A stretch of DNA of 52,569 nucleotides from a virus (Duplodnaviria; Caudoviricetes), in IMG/VR virus record IMGVR_UViG_3300007513_000054, positions 1 through 52,569 of that record; one strand, given 5' to 3'. Below the pieces are notes generated by a model that was given only the letters and a program-made list of their open reading frames with translations, was not told where the DNA came from and ran no database searches. How positions within the stretch are numbered: position 1 is the stretch's first letter; the number at the start of each line of letters is the position of its first letter. The position numbers were made by a program, and so were the translations under genes. Of the stretch, positions 15,612 through 48,518 are shown piece by piece.

Positions 15612-16874
15612 ATGGAAACAGATACCTTAGCTTTGCTTAGAGATCACAGTAATATTTTATGGACATGTCTTGCCGCTTTTTTGGTATTCTTTATGCAAGC
15701 AGGATTTGCTTTAGTTGAATCAGGATTTACTAGAGCAAAGAATGTTTGTAATATCATCATGAAAAATTTAATGGATGTTTCAATAGGATCTATTGTTTTT
15801 TGGATGTTTGGTTTTGGTTTAATGTTTGGAATTAGTAATGGTTATATAGGCGAGAATATGTTTTTGTTTGATGGAGGAAGTGAGAAGGCTATAGCAACAG
15901 GTAATTCAGTTGGATTTAATTGGGCCTTTTTGTTGTTTCAAACTGTGTTTTGTGCAACGGCTGCAACAATTGTTAGTGGTGCAGTAGCAGAAAGAACAAA
16001 ATTTATTGCCTATTTGGCATATTCTGTTGTAATATGTGGATTTATTTATCCTATTTTCGGATCATGGGCATGGGGTGGACTTTATGCTGGTGGTGGTTGG
16101 TTAGAGAATATGGGATTTTTAGATTTTGCTGGTTCAACTGTTGTTCATTCTATTGGTGGTTGGGCTGCATTAGCAGGAGCAATGGTAATTGGCGCAAGAC
16201 ATGGCAAATATCTTTCTGATGGGAAAGTAGGATTTTTGCAACCCCATAATGTTCCAATGGGTGCATTGGGAGTATTTATTCTTTGGTTAGGATGGTTTGG
16301 ATTCAATGCTGGTAGTACAACTGCAGTTGGTGGAGATTTAGCATTTATTGCATTGATTACAAATCTTGCGGCATGTGGTGGTGCATTGGGTGCTGGAATG
16401 ATTAGTTGGTTTTTACACAAAAAACCAGATCCTACATTAGCATTGAATGGTGCATTAGCTGGATTAGTTTCAATTACTGCTGGATGTGATATAATGTCTC
16501 CTGGAGCCGCAATATTAACTGGATTTGTTGGTGGTTGTATTGTAGTATTTGCTGTTAGATTGTTTGATATGCTTAGAATTGATGATCCTGTTGGAGCAAT
16601 ATCGGTTCATGGTGTCTGTGGTGCTTGGGGTACAATAGCAATAGGATTGCTTAGTTCTCAAGCAGGATGGAAACAATTGGGAATACAATCAATTGGTGTT
16701 CTTGTTGCATTTGTATGGTCGTTTGGACTCAGTTTAGTTATGTTTTTATTAATTAAACATACAATTGGACTAAGAGTGAGTGAAGAAGATGAATTAGCAG
16801 GATTAGATGAAACGGAACATGGAGTTTCTGGTTATCAAATTCCTGTAACTGATAGTACTGTATCGTTAAACTGA
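15612..16874 (+). CDS. amt: Ammonium transporter (Amt family)
   Basis: 'FMQAGFALVESG', 'DFAGSTVVH', 'WLGWFGFNAGS', 'DDPVGAISVHG'; multi-TM profile. Confidence 0.97.
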   Translation: METDTLALLRDHSNILWTCLAAFLVFFMQAGFALVESGFTRAKNVCNIIMKNLMDVSIGSIVFWMFGFGLMFGISNGYIGENMFLFDGGSEKAIATGNSVGFNWAFLLFQTVFCATAATIVSGAVAERTKFIAYLAYSVVICGFIYPIFGSWAWGGLYAGGGWLENMGFLDFAGSTVVHSIGGWAALAGAMVIGARHGKYLSDGKVGFLQPHNVPMGALGVFILWLGWFGFNAGSTTAVGGDLAFIALITNLAACGGALGAGMISWFLHKKPDPTLALNGALAGLVSITAGCDIMSPGAAILTGFVGGCIVVFAVRLFDMLRIDDPVGAISVHGVCGAWGTIAIGLLSSQAGWKQLGIQSIGVLVAFVWSFGLSLVMFLLIKHTIGLRVSEEDELAGLDETEHGVSGYQIPVTDSTVSLN

Positions 16875-40974: not shown

Positions 40975-41037
40975 ATAGTGCGAGTCGAAAGATCGCACAT
41001 ATAAAAATTAATCTTGCTTATTTAAGGAGATAGAACG

Positions 41038-41493
41038 ATGACAACTACAATACAACAATTTCGACAAAATAATTTTCCATTTTTCGTAGGTTTTGAAACA
41101 CTATGGGATACAATGGATAAAATCACTGAAACTCGACCACAGAGTTATCCGCCCTATAATCTTATTAAACATGATGATTATAATTATACTATTGAATTGG
41201 CCGTAGCTGGGTTTAGTTCGGAGCAAATTACAGTATCACATGAACCAGAACGTAATACGCTAACTGTTAAGGGAGATCAGTCAGGAAGTTCTGATGATGT
41301 TTCTTTTTTACATAGAGGTATTGCTGAACGTCAGTTCGATAGGACATGGACTGTTGCTGATAGTATTATAGTTAATAGTGCTGATTTGACTGATGGTATA
41401 CTAAGTATATCATTGGAAAAGTTAATTCCTGAGGAAAAGAAACCAAAAGAAATTTCGATTTCAACAGGAAGACAACTTTTGGTGGAAGACTAA
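41038..41493 (+). CDS. hsp20: Small heat-shock protein Hsp20
   Basis: 'YPPYN', 'IELAVAGF', 'LHRGIA.R.F', 'DGILSI', 'PEEKKP'. Confidence 0.95.
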   Translation: MTTTIQQFRQNNFPFFVGFETLWDTMDKITETRPQSYPPYNLIKHDDYNYTIELAVAGFSSEQITVSHEPERNTLTVKGDQSGSSDDVSFLHRGIAERQFDRTWTVADSIIVNSADLTDGILSISLEKLIPEEKKPKEISISTGRQLLVED

Positions 41494-41780
41494 TGCCATA
41501 TTACGATTATAAATGTAAAGAATGTAATCATAGTTGGGAGGAACAACAAAGTATAGATGCTAGAAATGTTCCTAGGTATAATCCTTGTCCTGATTGTGGT
41601 TCTTCTGGAGATATTGTTCTAGTGATGGGATCGCCTGCTATAGGCGATCCTGTAACATTAGGAATTAGAAAACCAGATGCAGGTTTTCAAAATAGATTAA
41701 GACAAATACATGAAAATGTGAAACCAGTGGGAGGCGATATATTAGGTAATTCTACCTATGGTCATAATATCACAGAATGA
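41493..41780 (+). CDS. FmdB-family zinc-ribbon protein
   Basis: 'MPYYDYKCKEC...CPDCGS', 'KPDAGF..RL..I'. Confidence 0.85.
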   Translation: MPYYDYKCKECNHSWEEQQSIDARNVPRYNPCPDCGSSGDIVLVMGSPAIGDPVTLGIRKPDAGFQNRLRQIHENVKPVGGDILGNSTYGHNITE

Positions 41781-42127
41781 TACCTTTGAAAATAGCCTTG
41801 ACAATTGGGGCTATATATGTTATAATATGTACAATTGGATGTTCTGAAGGATTTGAATATGGATGGACTTGGGGAATAACAAAAGATGATGGGGAGAGAG
41901 GTACAGGAAAACTTAAATGGAAGGCATATGAAGTTCGGGTTGATGATGTTTTAACATCTGTTGATGGTTCAGAAATAATTATACCTGCTGATCCACACAA
42001 AGATTGTAAACATGGTCATTATGTTGATCCTTATACAAAAATAGAATATTGTTTGCCAGAAAATTTTAGAAATATTAATACATTACATTTATACAGGGTA
42101 ACTAAAATACATGACTTAATTAATTAG
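41777..42127 (+). CDS. Hypothetical exported/lipoprotein-like protein
   Basis: ATGA overlap; hydrophobic N-terminus ending 'TIGC' coincides with promoter sequence. Confidence 0.45.
   Translation: MIPLKIALTIGAIYVIICTIGCSEGFEYGWTWGITKDDGERGTGKLKWKAYEVRVDDVLTSVDGSEIIIPADPHKDCKHGHYVDPYTKIEYCLPENFRNINTLHLYRVTKIHDLIN
41798..41826 (+). promoter_or_regulatory. sigma70-type promoter, nearest recognisable promoter upstream of the flagellin cluster
   Basis: TTGACA-N17-TATAAT with extended TG. Confidence 0.7.
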
Positions 42128-42136
42128 GAGGATATC

Positions 42137-42343
42137 ATGAAGATTCATTCTTCATCGCCAGAGATAGCTAGAACGTTTGATAGGTCAAAAGAACAACAAG
42201 TTCTCATGTCTAATATGGCATCTAGGGCTCATGTTAGAACTGAGTTGGCTACTCATGAAAGAGAAAAACACGATGTTAGTGTTGCTTCCAATATTTCACA
42301 AGATGTGTCAAAGATTGGAGCCACTTTAGACGTTAAAGCATAA
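42137..42343 (+). CDS. YjfB-like (putative motility) small protein
   Basis: SD AGGAGG; ends 'KIGATLDVKA'; adjacent to flagellin. Confidence 0.55.
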   Translation: MKIHSSSPEIARTFDRSKEQQVLMSNMASRAHVRTELATHEREKHDVSVASNISQDVSKIGATLDVKA

Positions 42344-42379
42344 TACATAATTTTTTAAATTATGAAAGCGGAGAATTGT

Positions 42380-43210
42380 ATGTTATCAGGAATTACACAA
42401 AAAACTTTAGGACGTTATCAAGAAGCCACAAAAATGGTTGAAGAAACGATGTCAAGGCTGGCATCTGGAACGGCTGATATTGGATCGGCTGATAAAATTA
42501 AAATGGGTAGAATTAATAATACTATTCATACGTTACAGACAGCACATAAAGTAGTTAAACAGAATCAAGATTTGTTGGAGTCTGCTCTTGTAGGAACAGA
42601 TTCTATTACTGCTGTTGTTCTTAAAATGAAAGAGGTTGCTACTGAGGCACAAGACGATCAATTAACAGCATCCCAACGTTTAGCTTTGATGGATGAGTAT
42701 AATGAATTGTCTGCTGAAATTGATTATGTTGCACAGAATACAGAATATGATGGAACAGAATTGATTGATGGTTCTTTTGGAACTAAAAGTTTTGTTATTG
42801 ATGGTGTTAATACTGATCAGACAGTTAGTGTTGAATTAGGTGATCTTACGTTAGAAGGATTAAAGCTTGGTGCTTATACTGATGATAATAATCAGGCAGT
42901 AGCTGTAGCTAAATTGGATACTGTTGCTGATGCTGAAGATGCAGTAACAAGATTGGAAACTGCTCTTGCATCATTAGAGGGTGAGAGATCTAATCAGTTG
43001 GCTAAAATTGAAAGATTCGATTTTACTATTTCTCATATGGAACGTATGATTGGTATTAATGAAGAATCTATTGCCACTATTAATGATTTTGATGAAGCAT
43101 CAGAGATGGCTAAATTGACTAGTTATAGAATTGAACAACAAACAGCTATTGCATTAATGGCTCAAGCACAACAACTTTCTGCTTCTGTTTTACAGTTGTT
43201 GGGCGGTTAA
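42380..43210 (+). CDS. fliC: Flagellin-like protein
   Basis: 'RLASG', 'KMKEVA..A', 'EYNEL.AEID.VA.NTEYDG..LIDG', 'D.DEASEMAKLT', 'AQAQQL...VLQLL'; SD GGAG before ATG 42380. Confidence 0.88.
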   Translation: MLSGITQKTLGRYQEATKMVEETMSRLASGTADIGSADKIKMGRINNTIHTLQTAHKVVKQNQDLLESALVGTDSITAVVLKMKEVATEAQDDQLTASQRLALMDEYNELSAEIDYVAQNTEYDGTELIDGSFGTKSFVIDGVNTDQTVSVELGDLTLEGLKLGAYTDDNNQAVAVAKLDTVADAEDAVTRLETALASLEGERSNQLAKIERFDFTISHMERMIGINEESIATINDFDEASEMAKLTSYRIEQQTAIALMAQAQQLSASVLQLLGG

Positions 43211-43257
43211 TAAATAATAATGCGAATTAGTGAGGCAGTTTATAAATTAATACATAC

Positions 43258-43281
43258 ATGGCCTTATAAAATTAAGGCCAT
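43258..43281. terminator. 9-bp perfect hairpin after flagellin (possible terminator/processing site)
   Basis: ATGGCCTTA-taaaat-TAAGGCCAT; no clear U tract. Confidence 0.35.
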
Positions 43282-43319
43282 TGAACCTGTGGATGAATCT
43301 ATAAAAGGTGATAATAATA

Positions 43320-43910
43320 ATGGGAAAAACGACATTCGACGAAATAATAGAAGTAGTATTAAAACACGAAGGCGGGTATGTAGACGATCCTGACGACAAA
43401 GGGGGAGCTACTAATTTTGGTGTAACTCAGGCATCTTATTCACAGTATCTAGGACGAAAAGCTTCTAAAGATGAAATTAAGGATATGAGTGTTGAAGATG
43501 CGAAGGGTTGTTATAAACAAGATTTTTGGGATCCTTCTAGGGCCGAACAGCTTAATGAGGATCTTAGAGAAGTATATTTTGATATGGTTGTTAATCATGG
43601 CCAGCGAAATGCGGTAAAAATTTTACAACAGGCCGCAAATAATAGAAATGCAGAAATAACAGTTGATGGTTTAATTGGACCTAATACTATTCGTGCCGCT
43701 AATAATGTTTCTAGGGAAGATGTTTTATTGGAACGTACTATGTTCTATGCTAATTTATGTTTTAATGGATCAAAGTATGCTGATAGGACTTCTCAAAATA
43801 AATTTTTGCGTGGGTGGGTATTTAATCGTGTATTCTATTTTGTAAAGAGTGAATTGCAAGATGAGGTAGATCGTCTTAAACAAATTATTAAAGAATTAAA
43901 GGAGCTATAG
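43320..43910 (+). CDS. Glycoside hydrolase family 108 lysozyme with peptidoglycan-binding domain
   Basis: 'HEGGYVDDPDDKGGATNFGVT', 'FD..VN.G', 'VDGLIGPNT', 'KFLRGW..R'. Confidence 0.92.
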   Translation: MGKTTFDEIIEVVLKHEGGYVDDPDDKGGATNFGVTQASYSQYLGRKASKDEIKDMSVEDAKGCYKQDFWDPSRAEQLNEDLREVYFDMVVNHGQRNAVKILQQAANNRNAEITVDGLIGPNTIRAANNVSREDVLLERTMFYANLCFNGSKYADRTSQNKFLRGWVFNRVFYFVKSELQDEVDRLKQIIKELKEL

Positions 43911-43911
43911 T

Positions 43912-44790
43912 ATGAGTAATAATGGAACACAGAGTTTATTGACGCAGGAGCAATTGCATGAACAAATTTTATATCCTGTGGTTCGTGTTAGGTGTGAGAA
44001 AGCTGGAGGTTCAGGTGTAGTTATTTATAGTGAACCTGATCCTGAGAATGAAGGGAAATTTATTAATATCGCTTTAACTTGCGAACACGTTATTGCAGAC
44101 GCAATTACAGTGAAAAATGAGTGGGATTCTTTGCTTAAACGTGAAGTAAAGAAAGATATAATGAAAGAAGTAGTTGTGGAGGTATTTGAATATGAAGGTT
44201 CGGAACTCCTTTCTGCTAATTCAACTAGGGCAGATGTTATTGCTTATGATAAAGGGCATGATTTGGCGGCTGTCAAATTGCACAATACAAAGCCTATGGA
44301 ATATGTGTCTCAAGTTATTTCGAAGGATGATATTACAAATTTGCGATTATTTGATCCGGTATGGACAAGTGGATGTAGTTTGTTACATGATCCTTTTGCT
44401 AACCCGGGAACGTTAACATACCTAAAAGAAGATATTGAGGAAAAGGATTATATGATGTATAATGCTCCATCAGTATTTGGTAATTCTGGTGGTGGTGTTT
44501 TTAGTGGTAAATCAGGAAATCTTTTAGGTCTGGCATCTCGTATTTCGACTATTCAACTTGGATTTGGAATTGATGTTATGACATGGATGGGTTTTTGTAC
44601 GCAACCGGCTAGATTGTATGAGTTTTTTGAGCATCAAGAAATGCAATTTTTGTATGATGATAATGATACTTATGCAGAAGGTTTAGAACGCCGTGAAAGT
44701 CGTCGTAAAGAATCTTTAAAATCATTGTTATTAGGTCAAGAAGGCGATTTGCCTGGAACAGAAAAGGCAGGTGGTAAGCGTAAAGATTAG
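43912..44790 (+). CDS. Trypsin-like serine protease
   Basis: 'GSGV', 'LTCEHV' (His), 'DLA' (Asp), 'GNSGGG' (Ser). Confidence 0.88.
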   Translation: MSNNGTQSLLTQEQLHEQILYPVVRVRCEKAGGSGVVIYSEPDPENEGKFINIALTCEHVIADAITVKNEWDSLLKREVKKDIMKEVVVEVFEYEGSELLSANSTRADVIAYDKGHDLAAVKLHNTKPMEYVSQVISKDDITNLRLFDPVWTSGCSLLHDPFANPGTLTYLKEDIEEKDYMMYNAPSVFGNSGGGVFSGKSGNLLGLASRISTIQLGFGIDVMTWMGFCTQPARLYEFFEHQEMQFLYDDNDTYAEGLERRESRRKESLKSLLLGQEGDLPGTEKAGGKRKD

Positions 44791-45491
44791 ATGAAAGTAT
44801 TTAATCATAAGGATGTAAAATATAATTTTTTTCCTTTAGATGTTATTGAAAAGGATAATAAACGCTATTACGGAAAGGATGGCGTTTATTATCCTTCAAT
44901 TACAACAGTTTTATCAGAGTTTCCTGGAAAGAAAGAAGGTTTAGAAAGATGGCGTAAGAAAGAAGGATTAGAGAAGGCTAATTCCATTACTTATGTTGCT
45001 GGCCAGCGTGGTAGTGCATTGCATGATGTAGCTGAAATGTATTTGAATAATGAAATACGGGATAATAGTTTTTTTCTCTTTAAAAGGCCTCCTATCAATC
45101 CAGATGTTGTTTCTATGTTTTATGACTTACAACCATATTTGGATCAAATTGATAATATAGATGGTTTAGAACTTGCTCTTTATTCTGATCAGTATAAAAT
45201 GGCAGGAAGGGTTGATTGTATAGGTGAATTTCAAGGAATTCCTTCTATAATTGATTTTAAGACTGCAAGAAGAATGAAAAAAACTGATTGGATTGAAGAT
45301 TATTTTTGTCAAGCTACTGGTTATAGTTTAATGTGGGAAGAAATGACAGGAAACATTATAAATAGAATTGTAGTGTTGATGGTTTCTAAAAAAGATGATA
45401 TTAGTTATGAATCTAAAGCATGGGTTCGTAATCGAAATGATTATATAGAATTATTAACAGAAACTAGAAAAATATTTAAGGAGATACATGA

Positions 45492-45501
<10 letters not shown>
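44791..45501 (+). CDS. PD-(D/E)XK exonuclease of T4-like phages
   Basis: 'YPSITTVL', 'RGSALH', 'AGRVDCI', 'IIDFKT', 'YF.Q...Y'. Confidence 0.9.
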
Positions 45502-45566
<65 letters not shown>

Positions 45567-45571
45567 CAATC

Positions 45572-45745
45572 ATGAAGAAACGTAGACAGAAATTCAAAGA
45601 GATTAAATCAGGTAAGAAAAAAAATATAAGACATCCTATTGCACCTGAAGAGCAGGTGGAAACACAAAAAAGAAAGTATAATAGGAGCCAGGAAAAAAGG
45701 GAATGGCGTGAAGAAATGGAAGAATGGAAAGATTATTTTAAGTAG
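45572..45745 (+). CDS. Small basic hypothetical protein
   Basis: ATG immediately after the tRNA; 'KRKYNR' motif. Confidence 0.45.
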   Translation: MKKRRQKFKEIKSGKKKNIRHPIAPEEQVETQKRKYNRSQEKREWREEMEEWKDYFK

Positions 45746-46760: not shown

Positions 46761-46997
46761 ATGAATGAAATAGCTTCCTTATTTAATAACAAGGAAACAT
46801 TTAGTATGGAGATAGAACAATTAGTGCAGGAAGAAGATACTTCATATATAGATGCAGTAATGTTTTATTGTGATGAACATGAAATTGATTACAATATTTT
46901 AAAAAAATTAATTGATAATACATTGAAAGCTAAATTGGAGTTGGAAGCCCGAGAACGAAATTTTTTATCTAATAAAGTAAATACATTACCGGTATGA
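46761..46997 (+). CDS. 33: Late transcription co-activator gp33
   Basis: 'FS.EIE.LV.....YIDAV..YC....I....K.KLE.EA...NFL....LP'; gene order 33-59-32. Confidence 0.88.
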   Translation: MNEIASLFNNKETFSMEIEQLVQEEDTSYIDAVMFYCDEHEIDYNILKKLIDNTLKAKLELEARERNFLSNKVNTLPV

Positions 46998-47593
46998 TTA
47001 AAACACAACCAATACAAGTTTATAGAATGTATCTTGGTGTGAAATTGCATTTTTCCGATAAAAAATTTAATTATGTGAAAGCGAAGGGTGGTGTTAAGGT
47101 TAGTCCTGAAGCATTGACTAAGCGGAAGGATCGTTATTATTTTGAGAAACTGTCAGAATCATATTCACCTGATCAGTTATTGGGTTATTTTGTTTCTAAT
47201 TTTGTTTATGGTCAACAAGATGGTGCAGTTATTAATCAAGAAGAAGGTTTTTCAGTTTATTCTAATTGGAAAGCAAAGTTAGAACGATTATCCTATCATG
47301 TTGTGAATGAAGTTCAGGGTTTGGTAGATTCTGATAACTCGTTTAATTCTTTTTTTGTAGTCGAAGATGGAAAGCATCCTATTTTATTGAAAAATCATTT
47401 AAAGGGTGATTTTTCGTTAGAAACAATGCTTATCTTGGATCGATTAACCAATTATTTAGAGGACTGGAGAAATTTTATTAAAGACGAATATGTCTGGCCT
47501 GAAATCTATAATTTATTAATTCGATATAGTCATTTTATAGATTTTGGTAATATTAAACAATATAAAGAAAAAATATTAGAAATATTGAGGTAA
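46994..47593 (+). CDS. 59: Helicase loader gp59
   Basis: 'Y..YL..KLHF', 'RKDRYYFEKL', 'HP.LLK..L.G..SLET'. Confidence 0.9.
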   Translation: MIKTQPIQVYRMYLGVKLHFSDKKFNYVKAKGGVKVSPEALTKRKDRYYFEKLSESYSPDQLLGYFVSNFVYGQQDGAVINQEEGFSVYSNWKAKLERLSYHVVNEVQGLVDSDNSFNSFFVVEDGKHPILLKNHLKGDFSLETMLILDRLTNYLEDWRNFIKDEYVWPEIYNLLIRYSHFIDFGNIKQYKEKILEILR

Positions 47594-47597
47594 TACT

Positions 47598-48518
47598 ATG
47601 TCTACATTTGCAAATATGAAGAAAGATCGTAAATCTATGATGGATACAGTTCGTAAGGCAGTTGAAAGTTCACAAAATGAAACACAATCATTTCAGGATG
47701 ATAGATTCTGGTATCCTGAAAGAGATAAAGGTGGTAACGGATTTGCTGTAGTTCGTTTTCTTCCACAATCTGAAGGAGAGACAGTTCCTTGGATTAAATA
47801 TTGGGATCACGGGTTTCAAGGTTCTGGCGGTTGGTTTATTGAGAATTGTTTGACATCTATCAATAAAAAATGTCCGGCATGTGAATTTAATACTTCATTG
47901 TGGAATTCGGGTGTTGAATCTGATAAAGATATAGCTCGTAAACAGAAACGTAGATTACGTCATGTTTCCAACATATATGTTGTTCATGATCCGTCTAATC
48001 CGCAGAATGAAGGTAAAGTTATGCTTTATCGTTATGGTAAGAAGATTTATGATAAACTTTCCGAAGCTATGAATCCTGAATTTAAGGATGAAGTAGCTTT
48101 TAATCCGTTTGATTTGTGGGAAGGCGCCGACCTTAAACTCAAAATTCGTAAAGTTGATGGATGGCCAAATTATGATCGTTCTGAATTTGATGAACGAAAG
48201 CCACTGTTTGGTACTGATTCTGAATTAGAGGAAGTATGGAAACAGCAATATAAGTTAGAAGAATTTCTTTCTGATGAGAAATTTAAAACTTATGAGGAGT
48301 TACAAGTTTCGTTAGCTAGAGCATTAGGACAGTCAAAGGATATTGGTACAGTAGAAGATAATGATACAGATTTACAAGAAGAAGTAGTTTTGGAATCTCC
48401 TAGTACTAAGTTTGGTCGAATAGAAGAAAAAGTAGAAACTCCTGAATTAAATATTGATACTGATGCAGGAGAAGAAAAGATGGATTATTTTGCACGTTTA
48501 GCGGAAGATAATCAATAA
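47598..48518 (+). CDS. 32: Single-stranded DNA-binding protein gp32
   Basis: 'DDRFW.P..DK.GNG.AVVRFLP', 'HGFQG.GGW.IENC', 'NPFDLWEGA', 'DYF.RLAE'. Confidence 0.95.
   Translation: MSTFANMKKDRKSMMDTVRKAVESSQNETQSFQDDRFWYPERDKGGNGFAVVRFLPQSEGETVPWIKYWDHGFQGSGGWFIENCLTSINKKCPACEFNTSLWNSGVESDKDIARKQKRRLRHVSNIYVVHDPSNPQNEGKVMLYRYGKKIYDKLSEAMNPEFKDEVAFNPFDLWEGADLKLKIRKVDGWPNYDRSEFDERKPLFGTDSELEEVWKQQYKLEEFLSDEKFKTYEELQVSLARALGQSKDIGTVEDNDTDLQEEVVLESPSTKFGRIEEKVETPELNIDTDAGEEKMDYFARLAEDNQ

What the first reader, a model, noticed from the sequence alone, without database searches (positions are those of the whole stretch)
42380..43210. Phage-encoded flagellin with an eroded N-terminal conserved region
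Seen: a 276-aa protein with flagellin D0/D1 signatures at both ends and a short variable core. The canonical 'INTN' start is missing, and after 'RLASG' the conserved 'LRINSAKDDAAG' segment is replaced by a shorter 'TADIGSAD'. Known: that segment is among the most conserved parts of flagellin. Inference: it could be exported into or poison the host filament (receptor change, superinfection exclusion, motility shutdown) or titrate partners such as FliS/FliW. Flagellin in a lytic T4-like genome is unusual.
Basis: partly seen in the sequence, partly recalled or inferred. Interest (0 to 1): 0.82.

Follow-up and report, generated by a model that had tools for sequence, protein, structure and literature searches.

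The report
Modified flagellin gene in ocean phages
An uncultured ocean T4-like phage and many of its relatives carry a well-conserved but altered copy of flagellin, the building block of the bacterial swimming filament, more likely to tamper with the host's flagellum than to keep it swimming.

Summary
ORF 42380-43210 (+) encodes a 276-aa flagellin. Both Pfam flagellin domains score over their cut-offs. The AlphaFold model superposes on filament protomers (TM 0.73-0.78).

It is not an assembly artefact, and the N-terminus is not eroded:
- About 120 marine homologues of 71% identity or more exist.
- Two more distant clades are also phage-borne.
- All clades lie upstream of the T4-type gp33/gp59/gp32 genes and group together in a tree.
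- dN/dS is about 0.1 in the N-terminal region.

The family has lost features that swimming flagellins keep:
- The D0-D1 linker motif is replaced and is 4 residues shorter.
- The glycine equivalent to Salmonella FliC G426 is Leu, Ile, Phe or Tyr in 121 of 121 clade members. It is Gly in 135 of 138 cellular flagellins. G426A gives straight, non-propulsive filaments.
- The C-terminal D0 helix, which binds FliS and forms the filament core, stays near-canonical.

A conserved 68-aa helical ORF of no known family sits directly upstream in 10 of 10 loci.

Best reading (0.45): a non-propulsive flagellin mimic that enters the host flagellar export and assembly pathway and disables or remodels the filament. 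The host is unknown and nothing has been tested biochemically. Prophage flagellins (FliCP-TldR) are known. I found no description of a family in T4-like phages (no lysogeny genes were searched for).

The parts
42380..43210 (+). Phage flagellin gene (276 aa plus stop). The open frame extends upstream to the ATG at 42362 (282-aa numbering is used below).
   Evidence: ORF. Pfam Flagellin_N 43.1 bits and Flagellin_C 47.3 bits. AF2 model and Foldseek TMq 0.73-0.78 to filament flagellins.
42371..42374 (+). Shine-Dalgarno-like GGAG, 6 nt before the ATG at 42380
   Evidence: Sequence read. An equivalent GAGG or GGAG lies at the same spacing in 10 of 10 related loci.
42380..42466 (+). N-terminal D0 helix (residues 7-35), 3-5 residues shorter than in cellular comparators and lacking the INTN-type start
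   Evidence: AF2 helix 3-35. 30 residues against 33-49 up to the invariant Gly. 2 of 5 conserved columns kept. Median dN/dS 0.10.
42467..42502 (+). D0-D1 linker and start of ND1a (residues 36-47). The canonical RINSA.DDAAGL-type motif is replaced, with a net 4-residue deletion.
   Evidence: alignments. 1 of 4 linker columns kept, plus 2 conserved columns deleted. Spacing is 52 against 56 residues.
42485..42751 (+). ND1a and ND1b helices (residues 42-130)
   Evidence: AF2 helices 42-96 and 103-126. 7 of 18 and 5 of 8 conserved columns kept. dN/dS 0.11 and 0.08.
42752..42922 (+). Short variable beta/loop core (residues 131-187), which is the outer surface in a D0/D1-only flagellin
   Evidence: AF2 strands 141-146 and 153-158. 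Highest dN/dS of the gene at 0.34. Indels between subclades give 282 against 303 aa.
42923..43207 (+). C-terminal D1 and D0 helices (residues 188-282). CD0 is near-canonical.
   Evidence: AF2 helix 188-281. CD1 keeps 7 of 15 conserved columns and CD0 keeps 11 of 13. CD0 dN/dS is 0.06. Residues 234-280 match the flagellin fragment crystallised with FliS (1ory_B, E 3.3e-05).
42998..43000 (+). Codon TTG = Leu213, at the position of the polymorphic-switch glycine (Salmonella FliC G426, P. aeruginosa G420)
   Evidence: Codon read. L107/I12/F1/Y1 in 121 phage clade sequences, against G135/A3 in 138 cellular representatives. Position mapping from equal-length aligned ranges to 1ucu/3a5x and 5wk6. Phenotype of G426A/G420A from PMC5643327.
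42137..42343 (+). Conserved 68-aa partner ORF (strong AGGAGG site) directly upstream of the flagellin gene. It is predicted to be one long helix and has no known family.
   Evidence: ORF and ribosome-binding site. Present directly upstream in 10 of 10 loci with upstream sequence. Motifs THEREKH and G..LDVKA. 78 homologues, none named. AF2 helix 8-67, pLDDT 71.6. No Pfam or NCBIfam hit.
46761..48518 (+). Genomic anchor: gp33-like late-transcription factor, gp59-like helicase loader and gp32 ssDNA-binding protein. In all three flagellin clades the flagellin gene lies upstream of this trio.
   Evidence: phrog_254, phrog_269 and phrog_224. Synteny in related loci.

Best explanation
The gene encodes a phage-adapted, non-propulsive flagellin mimic. 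It keeps the flagellin fold and the C-terminal D0 helix. In cellular flagellins that helix is bound by the chaperone FliS, and it forms the filament core. The protein is therefore probably handled by the host's own flagellar type III export pathway, since the phage contigs carry no chaperone or cap gene. It has lost the D0-D1 linker motif and the switch glycine that swimming flagellins need to build a supercoiled filament. Inferred mechanism: during infection it competes with host flagellin for FliS, the export gate and the filament tip. Once incorporated, it locks, caps or otherwise disables the filament. This would shut down or remodel the host flagellum, with possible benefits in saved energy and protein, loss or masking of a phage receptor, or keeping the infected cell in place. 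The conserved 68-aa helical protein encoded just upstream is inferred to be its partner, either an escort or a factor acting on the host counterpart. Shown here: homology, fold, conservation, phage context and the specific substitutions. Inferred: export, incorporation, effect on motility and the role of the small protein.
For: 1. It is a real flagellin. Both Pfam domains score over their cut-offs. The AF2 model has TMq 0.73-0.78 to filament protomers.
2. It is functional, not decaying. Median dN/dS is 0.12 overall, 0.10 in ND0, 0.11 in linker plus ND1a and 0.06 in CD0, over 8 sequences and 28 pairs. About 120 listed homologues have 71% identity or more.
3. The export and core determinants are kept. 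11 of 13 conserved CD0 columns are retained. Residues 234-280 match the FliS-bound flagellin fragment 1ory_B.
4. Motility determinants are lost.
   - The switch Gly is L, I, F or Y in 121 of 121 clade members, against G in 135 and A in 3 of 138 cellular representatives.
   - It maps to FliC G426 and PAO1 G420. The G-to-A mutants of these give L-type straight filaments, and straight filaments give no thrust (PMC5643327, passages read).
   - The linker motif is replaced and is 4 residues shorter in 16 of 16 members.
   - Flagellin_N scores 42-58 bits, against 117-141 in 5 cellular comparators.
5. It is not a fresh host copy. In 1.84 billion representatives, the hits after the phage-type proteins (P0121-P0124 and fragments of them) are at most 36% identical. 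All three phage clades fall on one side of a branch with SH-aLRT 100.
6. It depends on host machinery. No FliS was found in 10 phage records. No FliW and no above-cut-off FliD_C were found in 5 records. There is one flagellin gene per record in 5 of 5.
7. It is an accessory, lineage-restricted gene in the replication module. Only 2 of 54 gp32 loci with at least 3 kb upstream carry it. No NATAAATA motif lies within 400 nt upstream in 10 of 10 loci (the late-promoter consensus is recalled).
Against: - The host is unknown and has not been shown to be flagellated. The nearest cultured relatives by gp32 (48-50% identity) infect Synechococcus, Prochlorococcus and Pelagibacter. From general knowledge these have no flagella.
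- No export, binding or assembly was tested.
- The most basal phage clade (P0124 type) keeps the glycine and the canonical 56-residue spacing. The losses therefore do not define the whole family.
- Only Gly-to-Ala is documented to straighten filaments. The effect of Leu is extrapolated.
- 3 of 138 cellular flagellins have Ala at the switch position, and 1 of 39 has the short spacing.
- Strong constraint on all D1 helices would equally fit a true assembling subunit.
- The phage records are fragments (10-73% complete), so absence of FliS or FliD is weak evidence.
Confidence: 0.45

Rival explanations
1. It is a working filament subunit. Like the prophage flagellin FliCP, it replaces or tops up host flagellin so that the infected cell keeps or changes a functional, propulsive flagellum. 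This would be motility maintenance in the manner of an auxiliary gene, or a change of filament surface.
For: All four D0/D1 helices are under strong constraint, while the exposed core varies most (dN/dS 0.34 against 0.06-0.17) and has indels, as in filament-forming flagellins. The full-length fold matches minimal D0/D1 flagellins that do form filaments. There is precedent in FliCP, which takes over the Enterobacter filament (PMC13418256, passages read).
Against: The switch glycine is kept by 135 of 138 cellular flagellins but is bulky in 121 of 121 clade members. The linker motif is replaced and shortened. Beyond the phage-type hits, no representative exceeds 36% identity, which is unlike phage copies that must fit a host complex. 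Flagellin_N scores about a third of cellular scores.
Confidence: 0.17
2. It is an intracellular decoy. The protein stays in the cytoplasm and titrates proteins that bind flagellin (FliS, possibly FliW or others). This would block host flagellin export or rewire the regulation coupled to it.
For: The FliS-binding C-terminal segment is the best-conserved part. It keeps 11 of 13 conserved columns, has dN/dS 0.06 and matches 1ory_B and the FliC-FliS chimera 4iwb. The phage carries no chaperone of its own in 10 records.
Against: A pure FliS decoy would not need the N-terminal D0/D1 helices, yet these are as constrained as the rest. The Asn that I recall as essential for FliW binding in B. subtilis Hag (N255) aligns to Ile232 here (the role is recalled). 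No binding was tested.
Confidence: 0.15
3. It has a flagellum-independent structural use. The flagellin fold has been co-opted as a fibre, either on the virion or inside the cell. The host may be non-motile, as are the hosts of related cultured phages.
For: The nearest cultured relatives infect hosts without flagella (for the names; lack of flagella is general knowledge). Loss of the switch glycine and linker motif is expected if supercoiling and co-assembly with host flagellin no longer matter. The family evolved as one separate phage lineage. A dedicated small helical partner could act as an assembly chaperone.
Against: In all clades the gene sits in the replication module next to gp33, gp59 and gp32, not among virion genes. 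No late-promoter-like motif lies upstream in 10 of 10 loci. The C-terminal D0 stays close to the cellular consensus, which points to continued interaction with cellular partners. The gene is missing from most related phages, in 52 of 54 loci.
Confidence: 0.15
4. It is an artefact: a bacterial flagellin gene joined to phage DNA by misassembly, or a decaying hitch-hiker.
For: The window is a metagenomic fragment (CheckV completeness 29%).
Against: The same two-gene module lies between phage genes in 10 other viral contigs, and L012 has the same order from Hsp20 to gp32. 4 runs hold at least half of the sampled words, and 20 runs of 13 studies hold part. GC is 0.35 in the gene and 0.33 in the window. 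dN/dS is 0.12.
Confidence: 0.01

Closest known systems
Prophage-encoded flagellin FliCP with the RNA-guided repressor TldR (Enterobacter phage FR-phi; PMC13418256, passages read)
   Same: A phage-borne flagellin homologue encoded next to a second phage gene. Its presumed target is the host flagellar filament. It diverges from host flagellin.
   Different: FliCP belongs to a temperate lambda-like prophage. It has D0/D1 domains highly similar to the host's plus large outer domains D2-D4, and it makes a thicker, better-swimming filament. Its neighbour is a TnpB-derived repressor. Here the phage is T4-like, and the protein is a 276-aa D0/D1-only form with a divergent N-terminal domain and no switch glycine. 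Its neighbour is a 68-aa helix with no known family.
Minimal D0/D1 flagellins of bacteria (Caulobacter FljK 6xl0, Kurthia 6t17, Roseburia 9hpz, Leptospira FlaB 9lrz, B. subtilis Hag 5wjt)
   Same: Same length class and same fold over the whole chain, with TMq 0.73-0.78. The universal residues are shared: the Gly of RLASG, the R/E/L/E/T positions of ND1b, the I.D.D.A.E motif and the QA motif of CD0.
   Different: Sequence identity is 20-25% in the structural alignments. The linker motif is replaced and is 4 residues shorter. The switch Gly is replaced. The gene is encoded in a phage replication module, with no flagellar genes nearby.
Straight-filament flagellin mutants: Salmonella FliC G426A and P. 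aeruginosa FliC G420A (PMC5643327; PDB 9iwq, 5wk6)
   Same: The change is at the same alignment position as Leu213 of the phage protein.
   Different: Those are laboratory point mutants (Gly to Ala) of otherwise normal flagellins. Here a bulkier residue is fixed by natural selection in a whole phage clade, together with many other changes. Its effect on filament shape is untested.
Secreted, non-filament flagellin homologues: Campylobacter FlaC and Vibrio flagellin-homologous proteins (PMC4863622 and PMC6692518, abstracts in the search listing only)
   Same: Flagellin-family proteins that are reported as secreted but not used for swimming.
   Different: They are chromosomal genes of flagellated bacteria. 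No sequence comparison with them was made here.

Membership tests
Bacterial flagellin (FliC/Hag/FljK; Pfam PF00669 + PF00700) | N-terminal helical domain over the Pfam gathering score | tested here: met
   43.1 bits against a cut-off of 26.6, covering profile positions 9-137 of 139. This is low compared with 117-141 bits in 5 cellular comparators.
Bacterial flagellin (FliC/Hag/FljK; Pfam PF00669 + PF00700) | C-terminal helical domain over the Pfam gathering score | tested here: met
   47.3 bits against a cut-off of 23, covering profile positions 3-86 of 86. Cellular comparators score 67-83 bits.
Bacterial flagellin (FliC/Hag/FljK; Pfam PF00669 + PF00700) | D0/D1 helical hairpin fold | tested here: met
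   AF2 pLDDT 79.8. Foldseek top hits are all filament flagellins, with TMq 0.73-0.78 and E down to 1e-12.
Bacterial flagellin (FliC/Hag/FljK; Pfam PF00669 + PF00700) | Conserved D0-D1 linker motif (RINSA.DDAAGL type) and fixed 56-residue spacing to the (Q)RMRE motif | tested here: not met
   1 of 4 linker columns is kept and 2 conserved columns are deleted. Spacing is 52 in 16 of 16 clade members, against 56 in 38 of 39 cellular comparators.
Bacterial flagellin (FliC/Hag/FljK; Pfam PF00669 + PF00700) | Small residue (Gly) at the polymorphic-switch position of CD1 (FliC G426) | tested here: not met
   Leu213 here. The position is L, I, F or Y in 121 of 121 clade members, against G in 135 and A in 3 of 138 cellular representatives.
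Bacterial flagellin (FliC/Hag/FljK; Pfam PF00669 + PF00700) | Score over the cut-off of a curated NCBIfam flagellin model | tested here: not met
   The best model, NF009448, scores 95.9 bits against a cut-off of 531. None of the 20 models listed reaches its cut-off.
Bacterial flagellin (FliC/Hag/FljK; Pfam PF00669 + PF00700) | Export by the flagellar type III system and polymerisation into a filament under the FliD cap | not testable with these tools
   This needs expression in a flagellated host. No phage FliS, FliW or above-cut-off FliD_C was found.
Prophage FliCP-TldR flagellar remodelling module | Adjacent TnpB-derived RNA-guided repressor (TldR) | tested here: not met
   The upstream neighbour is a 68-aa ORF with no Pfam or NCBIfam match. 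The downstream neighbour is a GH108 endolysin.
Prophage FliCP-TldR flagellar remodelling module | Temperate phage context | tested here: inconclusive
   The window shows a T4-type replication module with gp32, gp59-like, gp33-like, primase and RNase H. The record is only 29% complete. No integrase search was made.
Prophage FliCP-TldR flagellar remodelling module | Large surface domains D2-D4 on a host-like D0/D1 core | tested here: not met
   The protein is 276 aa with only a beta/loop core of about 57 residues. Beyond the phage-type hits, no representative exceeds 36% identity.
Hook-associated protein 3 (FlgL) | Best match to FlgL models rather than flagellin models | tested here: not met
   No FlgL model is listed for the clade-1 protein at E<=0.01, whereas flagellin models are listed down to 2.4e-27. 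The P0124-type relative hits FlgL at 80 bits (cut-off 127.2), below its best flagellin score of 131.6.

The most novel reading that the evidence does not exclude
Ocean T4-like phages deploy a 'straightener' flagellin. The protein would be secreted through the host's own flagellar export machine, helped or partnered by the conserved 68-aa helical protein. Subunits that lack the switch glycine and the canonical D0-D1 linker would then add to the growing filament and lock or cap it. This would paralyse swimming within a single infection cycle. It would be a phage anti-motility weapon built from the motility protein itself.
Probability: 0.25. Interest if true: 0.85.

Novelty: new variant of a known kind. 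Interest (0 to 1): 0.68.

Why it matters
Flagellin is one of the best-studied bacterial proteins. [quoted passage not shown] One ocean Hi-C study lists fliC among viral auxiliary genes in passing (PMC13035462).

This report shows a large, single-lineage, strongly conserved flagellin family in uncultured marine T4-like phages. It has its own small partner gene, and it carries natural substitutions at positions that flagellar structural biology has tied to filament supercoiling.

If the protein acts on host flagella, it would be a new way for phages to control host motility during infection in the sea, where motility and chemotaxis shape nutrient uptake and encounter rates. If the hosts have no flagella, it would be a rare case of the flagellin fold recruited for another job. 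Both outcomes can be tested directly with a 276-aa protein.

Tried and rejected
- **Complex prediction.** The job with flagellin plus the 68-aa ORF returned 'no answer' (score 0.00). It counts neither for nor against binding.
- **Small ORF against known families.** No Pfam hit at E<=10 in 5 of 6 homologues, and one sub-threshold DUF7498 hit. No NCBIfam hit. The protein atlas gave only unnamed, mostly viral clusters.
- **Small ORF as a split-off flagellin N-terminus.** Many homologues start with MINTYG, which is reminiscent of the flagellin INTN start. Profile-profile comparison with the flagellin alignment gave probability 0.07%, so this idea was rejected.
- **Link to sugar islands.** Earlier notes describe Maf-type sugar-transferase islands in other marine T4-like phages. 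No PF01973 match was found in 5 records. These are fragments, so the question stays open.
- **Host inference from the phage ammonium transporter.** The best cellular relatives are high-GC Pirellulales and Planctomycetaceae MAGs at 63-68% identity. This is too distant to name a host.
- **'Provirus' flags.** IMG/VR flags two related records as provirus. Both have uniform GC of 0.31-0.38 with no host-like flank.
- **Promoter scans.** Sigma-70-like sites number 22, against 24.0 expected. TATAAATA occurs 12 times, against 12.75 expected. Neither is informative.
- **Read laying.** The independent DNA run X4 showed no cover over about 42232-42847, and one contig joint 41519->44342 had a 33-letter side. 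By the tool's own caveats neither is evidence.
- **Transcription.** Contigs from RNA libraries, 90-95% alike, overlap the flagellin ORF in X16 (42720-42781) and X17 (42983-43183). DNA can be present in such libraries, so this is only a weak hint that relatives are transcribed.
- **Literature searches.** These found no paper that describes or analyses a flagellin in a lytic or T4-like phage. The only trace is the passing fliC listing in PMC13035462 noted elsewhere (found, read). The supplement of PMC13035462 may list the fliC-bearing viral contigs and their Hi-C hosts.
Full report
**What is there**

The window is a 52,569-bp IMG/VR viral record, estimated 29% complete, with about 33% GC. It carries a T4-type replication module:
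- gp32 ssDNA-binding protein, gp59-like helicase loader and gp33-like late-transcription factor;
- primase, RNase H and ribonucleotide reductase;
- PhoH, ThyX, Hsp20 and a CobS/CobT-like pair.

Its gp32 is 48-50% identical to those of Synechococcus and Prochlorococcus myoviruses and of Pelagibacter phage HTVC008M. The DNA has no match in 50,697 phage records. It is therefore an uncultured lineage of the marine T4-like phages.

An ORF runs 42362-43210 on the + strand. The ATG at 42380 has a GGAG 6 nt upstream, and the first ATG has none. The same arrangement is seen in 10 of 10 related loci.

**It is a flagellin**

- Pfam Flagellin_N scores 43.1 bits (cut-off 26.6). Flagellin_C scores 47.3 bits (cut-off 23). 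Both matches cover almost the whole profile.
- A sequence search of the PDB finds 70 distinct flagellin chains at E<=0.01, the best being 6b5b_F at 2.4e-22.
- An AlphaFold2 model built on a 57-row alignment has pLDDT 79.8. It shows an N-terminal D0 helix (3-35), a 6-residue linker, ND1a (42-96), ND1b (103-126), a small beta/loop core and one long C-terminal helix (188-281).
- Foldseek's best PDB matches are all flagellin protomers taken from filaments (Leptospira, Vibrio, Bacillus, Roseburia, Kurthia, Caulobacter, Shewanella), with TM 0.73-0.78 normalised to the query.
- Flagellin models outscore FlgL models, but no curated NCBIfam flagellin model comes near its cut-off.

**It is a phage gene family, not an accident**

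- The 5.8-billion-protein search returned 238 hits. The 120 listed are all 71-100% identical, come from marine sources (ENA, Tara, JGI, NCBI), and lie on contigs of up to 135 kb.
- Eleven IMG/VR loci carry it at 66-87% identity. One of them, L012, has the same gene order as the window from the Hsp20 gene to gp32.
- The stretch 41000-45600 is held at least in part by 20 public runs of 13 studies. All but two are labelled marine or seawater, and 4 hold half or more of the sampled words.
- In 1.84 billion representatives only 7 proteins reach E<=1e-30. The full-length hits are P0121 (72%), P0123 (43%) and P0124 (38%). After these and a few fragments come ordinary flagellins at no more than 36% identity.
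- P0123-type and P0124-type proteins are themselves on viral contigs. In both clades the gene again lies just upstream of a gp33-like, gp59-like and gp32 trio.
- I built a quick maximum-likelihood tree of 16 phage sequences and 44 short cellular representatives. The 94 longer representatives among the 138 were left out. All three phage clades fall on one side of a branch with SH-aLRT 100, and the P0124 type branches first. One origin is thus consistent with the data, although long-branch effects cannot be excluded.
- The gene is restricted to certain lineages. Among 80 loci holding gp32 relatives, 54 have at least 3 kb upstream of gp32. Only 2 of these carry a flagellin, both with gp32 72-86% identical to the window's.

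**The N-terminus is changed, not eroded**

The phage protein has 30 residues before the invariant Gly of RLASG, against 33-49 (median 35) in 39 cellular comparators. From that Gly to the conserved R/K of the (Q)RMRE motif there are 52 residues in 16 of 16 clade members and in P0123. There are 56 in 38 of 39 cellular comparators and in P0124.

I took the 73 columns that are at least 70% conserved in the cellular comparators and counted how many the clade consensus keeps (the remaining 2 columns lie before residue 7, and 1 of them is kept):

| Region | Conserved columns kept |
|---|---|
| ND0 | 2 of 5 |
| Linker | 1 of 4 (2 further conserved columns are deleted) |
| ND1a | 7 of 18 |
| ND1b | 5 of 8 |
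| Core | 4 of 6 |
| CD1 | 7 of 15 |
| CD0 | 11 of 13 |

Flagellin_N scores 42-58 bits in clade 1, 52 in P0123 and 78 in P0124, against 117-141 in five cellular comparators. Flagellin_C scores 43-51 against 67-83.

Yet pairwise dN/dS over 8 phage sequences (28 pairs) is low. L004, L005 and L009 were left out as near-copies and L008 as partial. In the per-region medians, pairs with saturated synonymous sites were also dropped, leaving 12-25 of the 28 pairs in five of the six regions. The medians are:

| Region | Median dN/dS |
|---|---|
| Overall | 0.12 |
| ND0 | 0.10 |
| Linker plus ND1a | 0.11 |
| ND1b | 0.08 |
| Core | 0.34 |
| CD1 | 0.17 |
| CD0 | 0.06 |

The derived N-terminal state is therefore maintained by selection.

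**A specific substitution at the polymorphic switch**

One CD1 column is Gly in 135 and Ala in 3 of 138 cellular representatives. Three of the 141 ids were dropped because they were shorter than 240 aa. In the phage clade the same column is Leu in 107, Ile in 12, Phe in 1 and Tyr in 1 of 121 sequences. It is Asn in P0123 and Gly in P0124. In the window it is Leu213, codon 42998-43000.

The C-terminal 98 residues align over equal-length ranges to Salmonella FliC chains 1ucu and 3a5x (7-96 to 404-493) and to P. aeruginosa 5wk6 (3-96 to 394-487). This places Leu213 at FliC residue 426 and PAO1 residue 420.

Wang et al. 2017 (PMC5643327, passages read) state three things. G426A in Salmonella and the corresponding G420A in P. 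aeruginosa give L-type straight filaments. Filaments locked in one state are straight. Straight filaments generate no thrust. PDB entry 9iwq carries the same mutation in its title.

The phage clade has thus fixed a bulkier residue at a site where even Ala abolishes supercoiling in two species. The effect of Leu itself is an extrapolation.

**What is kept**

The C-terminal D0 helix is close to the cellular consensus. Residues 234-280 match the flagellin fragment crystallised with the chaperone FliS (1ory_B, E 3.3e-05), and residues 243-282 match a FliC-FliS chimera (4iwb).

No FliS gene was found in 10 phage records. No FliW and no FliD_C above the cut-off were found in 5 records. Each of 5 records has exactly one flagellin gene. 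These records are 10-73% complete.

**The partner ORF**

A 68-aa ORF (42137-42343) with a strong AGGAGG site lies directly upstream. A homologue of 42-50% identity occupies the same place in 10 of the 11 related loci. The eleventh locus starts inside the flagellin gene. The P0123-type locus L104 also has a look-alike, judged by eye. The P0124 clade instead has two other small ORFs.

The family has 78 members, none named, with conserved THEREKH and G..LDVKA motifs. AlphaFold predicts a single long helix (8-67, pLDDT 71.6). No Pfam, NCBIfam or atlas family fits it.

**How it most likely works**

Shown: a phage-lineage flagellin with an intact fold, a near-canonical chaperone-binding and core helix, strong purifying selection, loss of two features that swimming flagellins keep, no phage chaperone or cap gene in the records held, and a position in the replication module.

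Inferred: the protein is taken by host FliS to the flagellar export gate and competes with host flagellin. At the filament tip it yields a locked, capped or otherwise non-propulsive structure. The small helical protein assists it or acts on the host counterpart.

Confidences:
- Main reading: 0.45.
- A genuine working subunit, as for prophage FliCP: 0.17.
- A purely cytoplasmic decoy for FliS-type partners: 0.15.
- A flagellum-independent fibre in hosts that may lack flagella: 0.15.

The last rival is kept alive because the host is unknown and because the cultured relatives infect non-flagellated hosts.

**Comparison with what is known**

[quoted passage not shown] It differs in phage type, in domain architecture, in its neighbour gene and in its effect, which is better swimming.

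One marine Hi-C study lists fliC among auxiliary genes on viral contigs without analysis (PMC13035462, one passage read). Its supplements, which I could not open, may hold hosts.

Seven literature searches found no paper that describes or analyses a flagellin family in lytic or T4-like phages. I therefore rate it a new variant of a known kind.

Noticed in passing
window 15612-16874 (+): The phage encodes a full-length ammonium transporter (Pfam Ammonium_transp, 399 bits). Its best cellular relatives are high-GC Pirellulales and Planctomycetaceae MAGs at 63-68% identity, while the phage copy has 37% GC. This is an auxiliary gene worth its own look.
   Followed up: partly
window 41798-41826 (+), overlapping stem-loop 41792-41814: A perfect sigma-70 consensus (TTGACA, 17 nt, TATAAT, with TG) lies just inside the start of the 116-aa ORF 41777-42127, about 310 nt upstream of the small ORF and flagellin module. 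It is the only 12-of-12 match among the 22 sites listed in the 5.1-kb scan.
   Followed up: no
window 41777-42127 (+): The 116-aa ORF before the module has a hydrophobic N-terminus ending in a Cys, which looks lipoprotein-like by eye. It has no Pfam or PHROG match. It could be a spanin-type or surface protein.
   Followed up: no
window 43258-43281: A 9-bp-stem inverted repeat (GGCCTTA...TAAGGCC core) lies between the flagellin stop and the GH108 endolysin gene. An AATAAATA motif lies right after the flagellin stop codon and may be a late-type promoter for the endolysin (the consensus is recalled).
   Followed up: no
window 45492-45566 (+): A tRNA-Thr (TGT) gene overlaps the last bases of the PD-(D/E)XK exonuclease ORF (44791-45501). 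Contigs in RNA libraries cover 45510-45545 at higher depth, probably from conserved tRNA sequence of other organisms.
   Followed up: no
L093-L101 (P0124-type loci), e.g. L100 5577-5944: In the basal flagellin clade the gene is preceded by two other conserved small ORFs, not by the 68-aa ORF. One is about 60 aa and ends in ELPIWSIK. The other is a 62-68-aa Cys-rich (CxxC) protein.
   Followed up: no
alignment A3 of the 68-aa ORF family: Most homologues of the small ORF begin with MINTYG, reminiscent of the flagellin INTN start that the phage flagellin lacks. The window's own copy does not. Profile comparison found no homology to flagellin.
   Followed up: yes
window 42362-43210, PHROGs: The only PHROG hit is phrog_16088 (unknown function, E 1.5e-06). 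The match is to positions 259-509 of a 510-position profile. This suggests that longer flagellin-like proteins exist among catalogued phages or prophages.
   Followed up: no
window 43912-44790 (+) and relatives: A trypsin-like peptidase gene travels with the endolysin and exonuclease genes near the flagellin module in most related loci, but in a different order (window and L012 against L002, L003, L006).
   Followed up: partly
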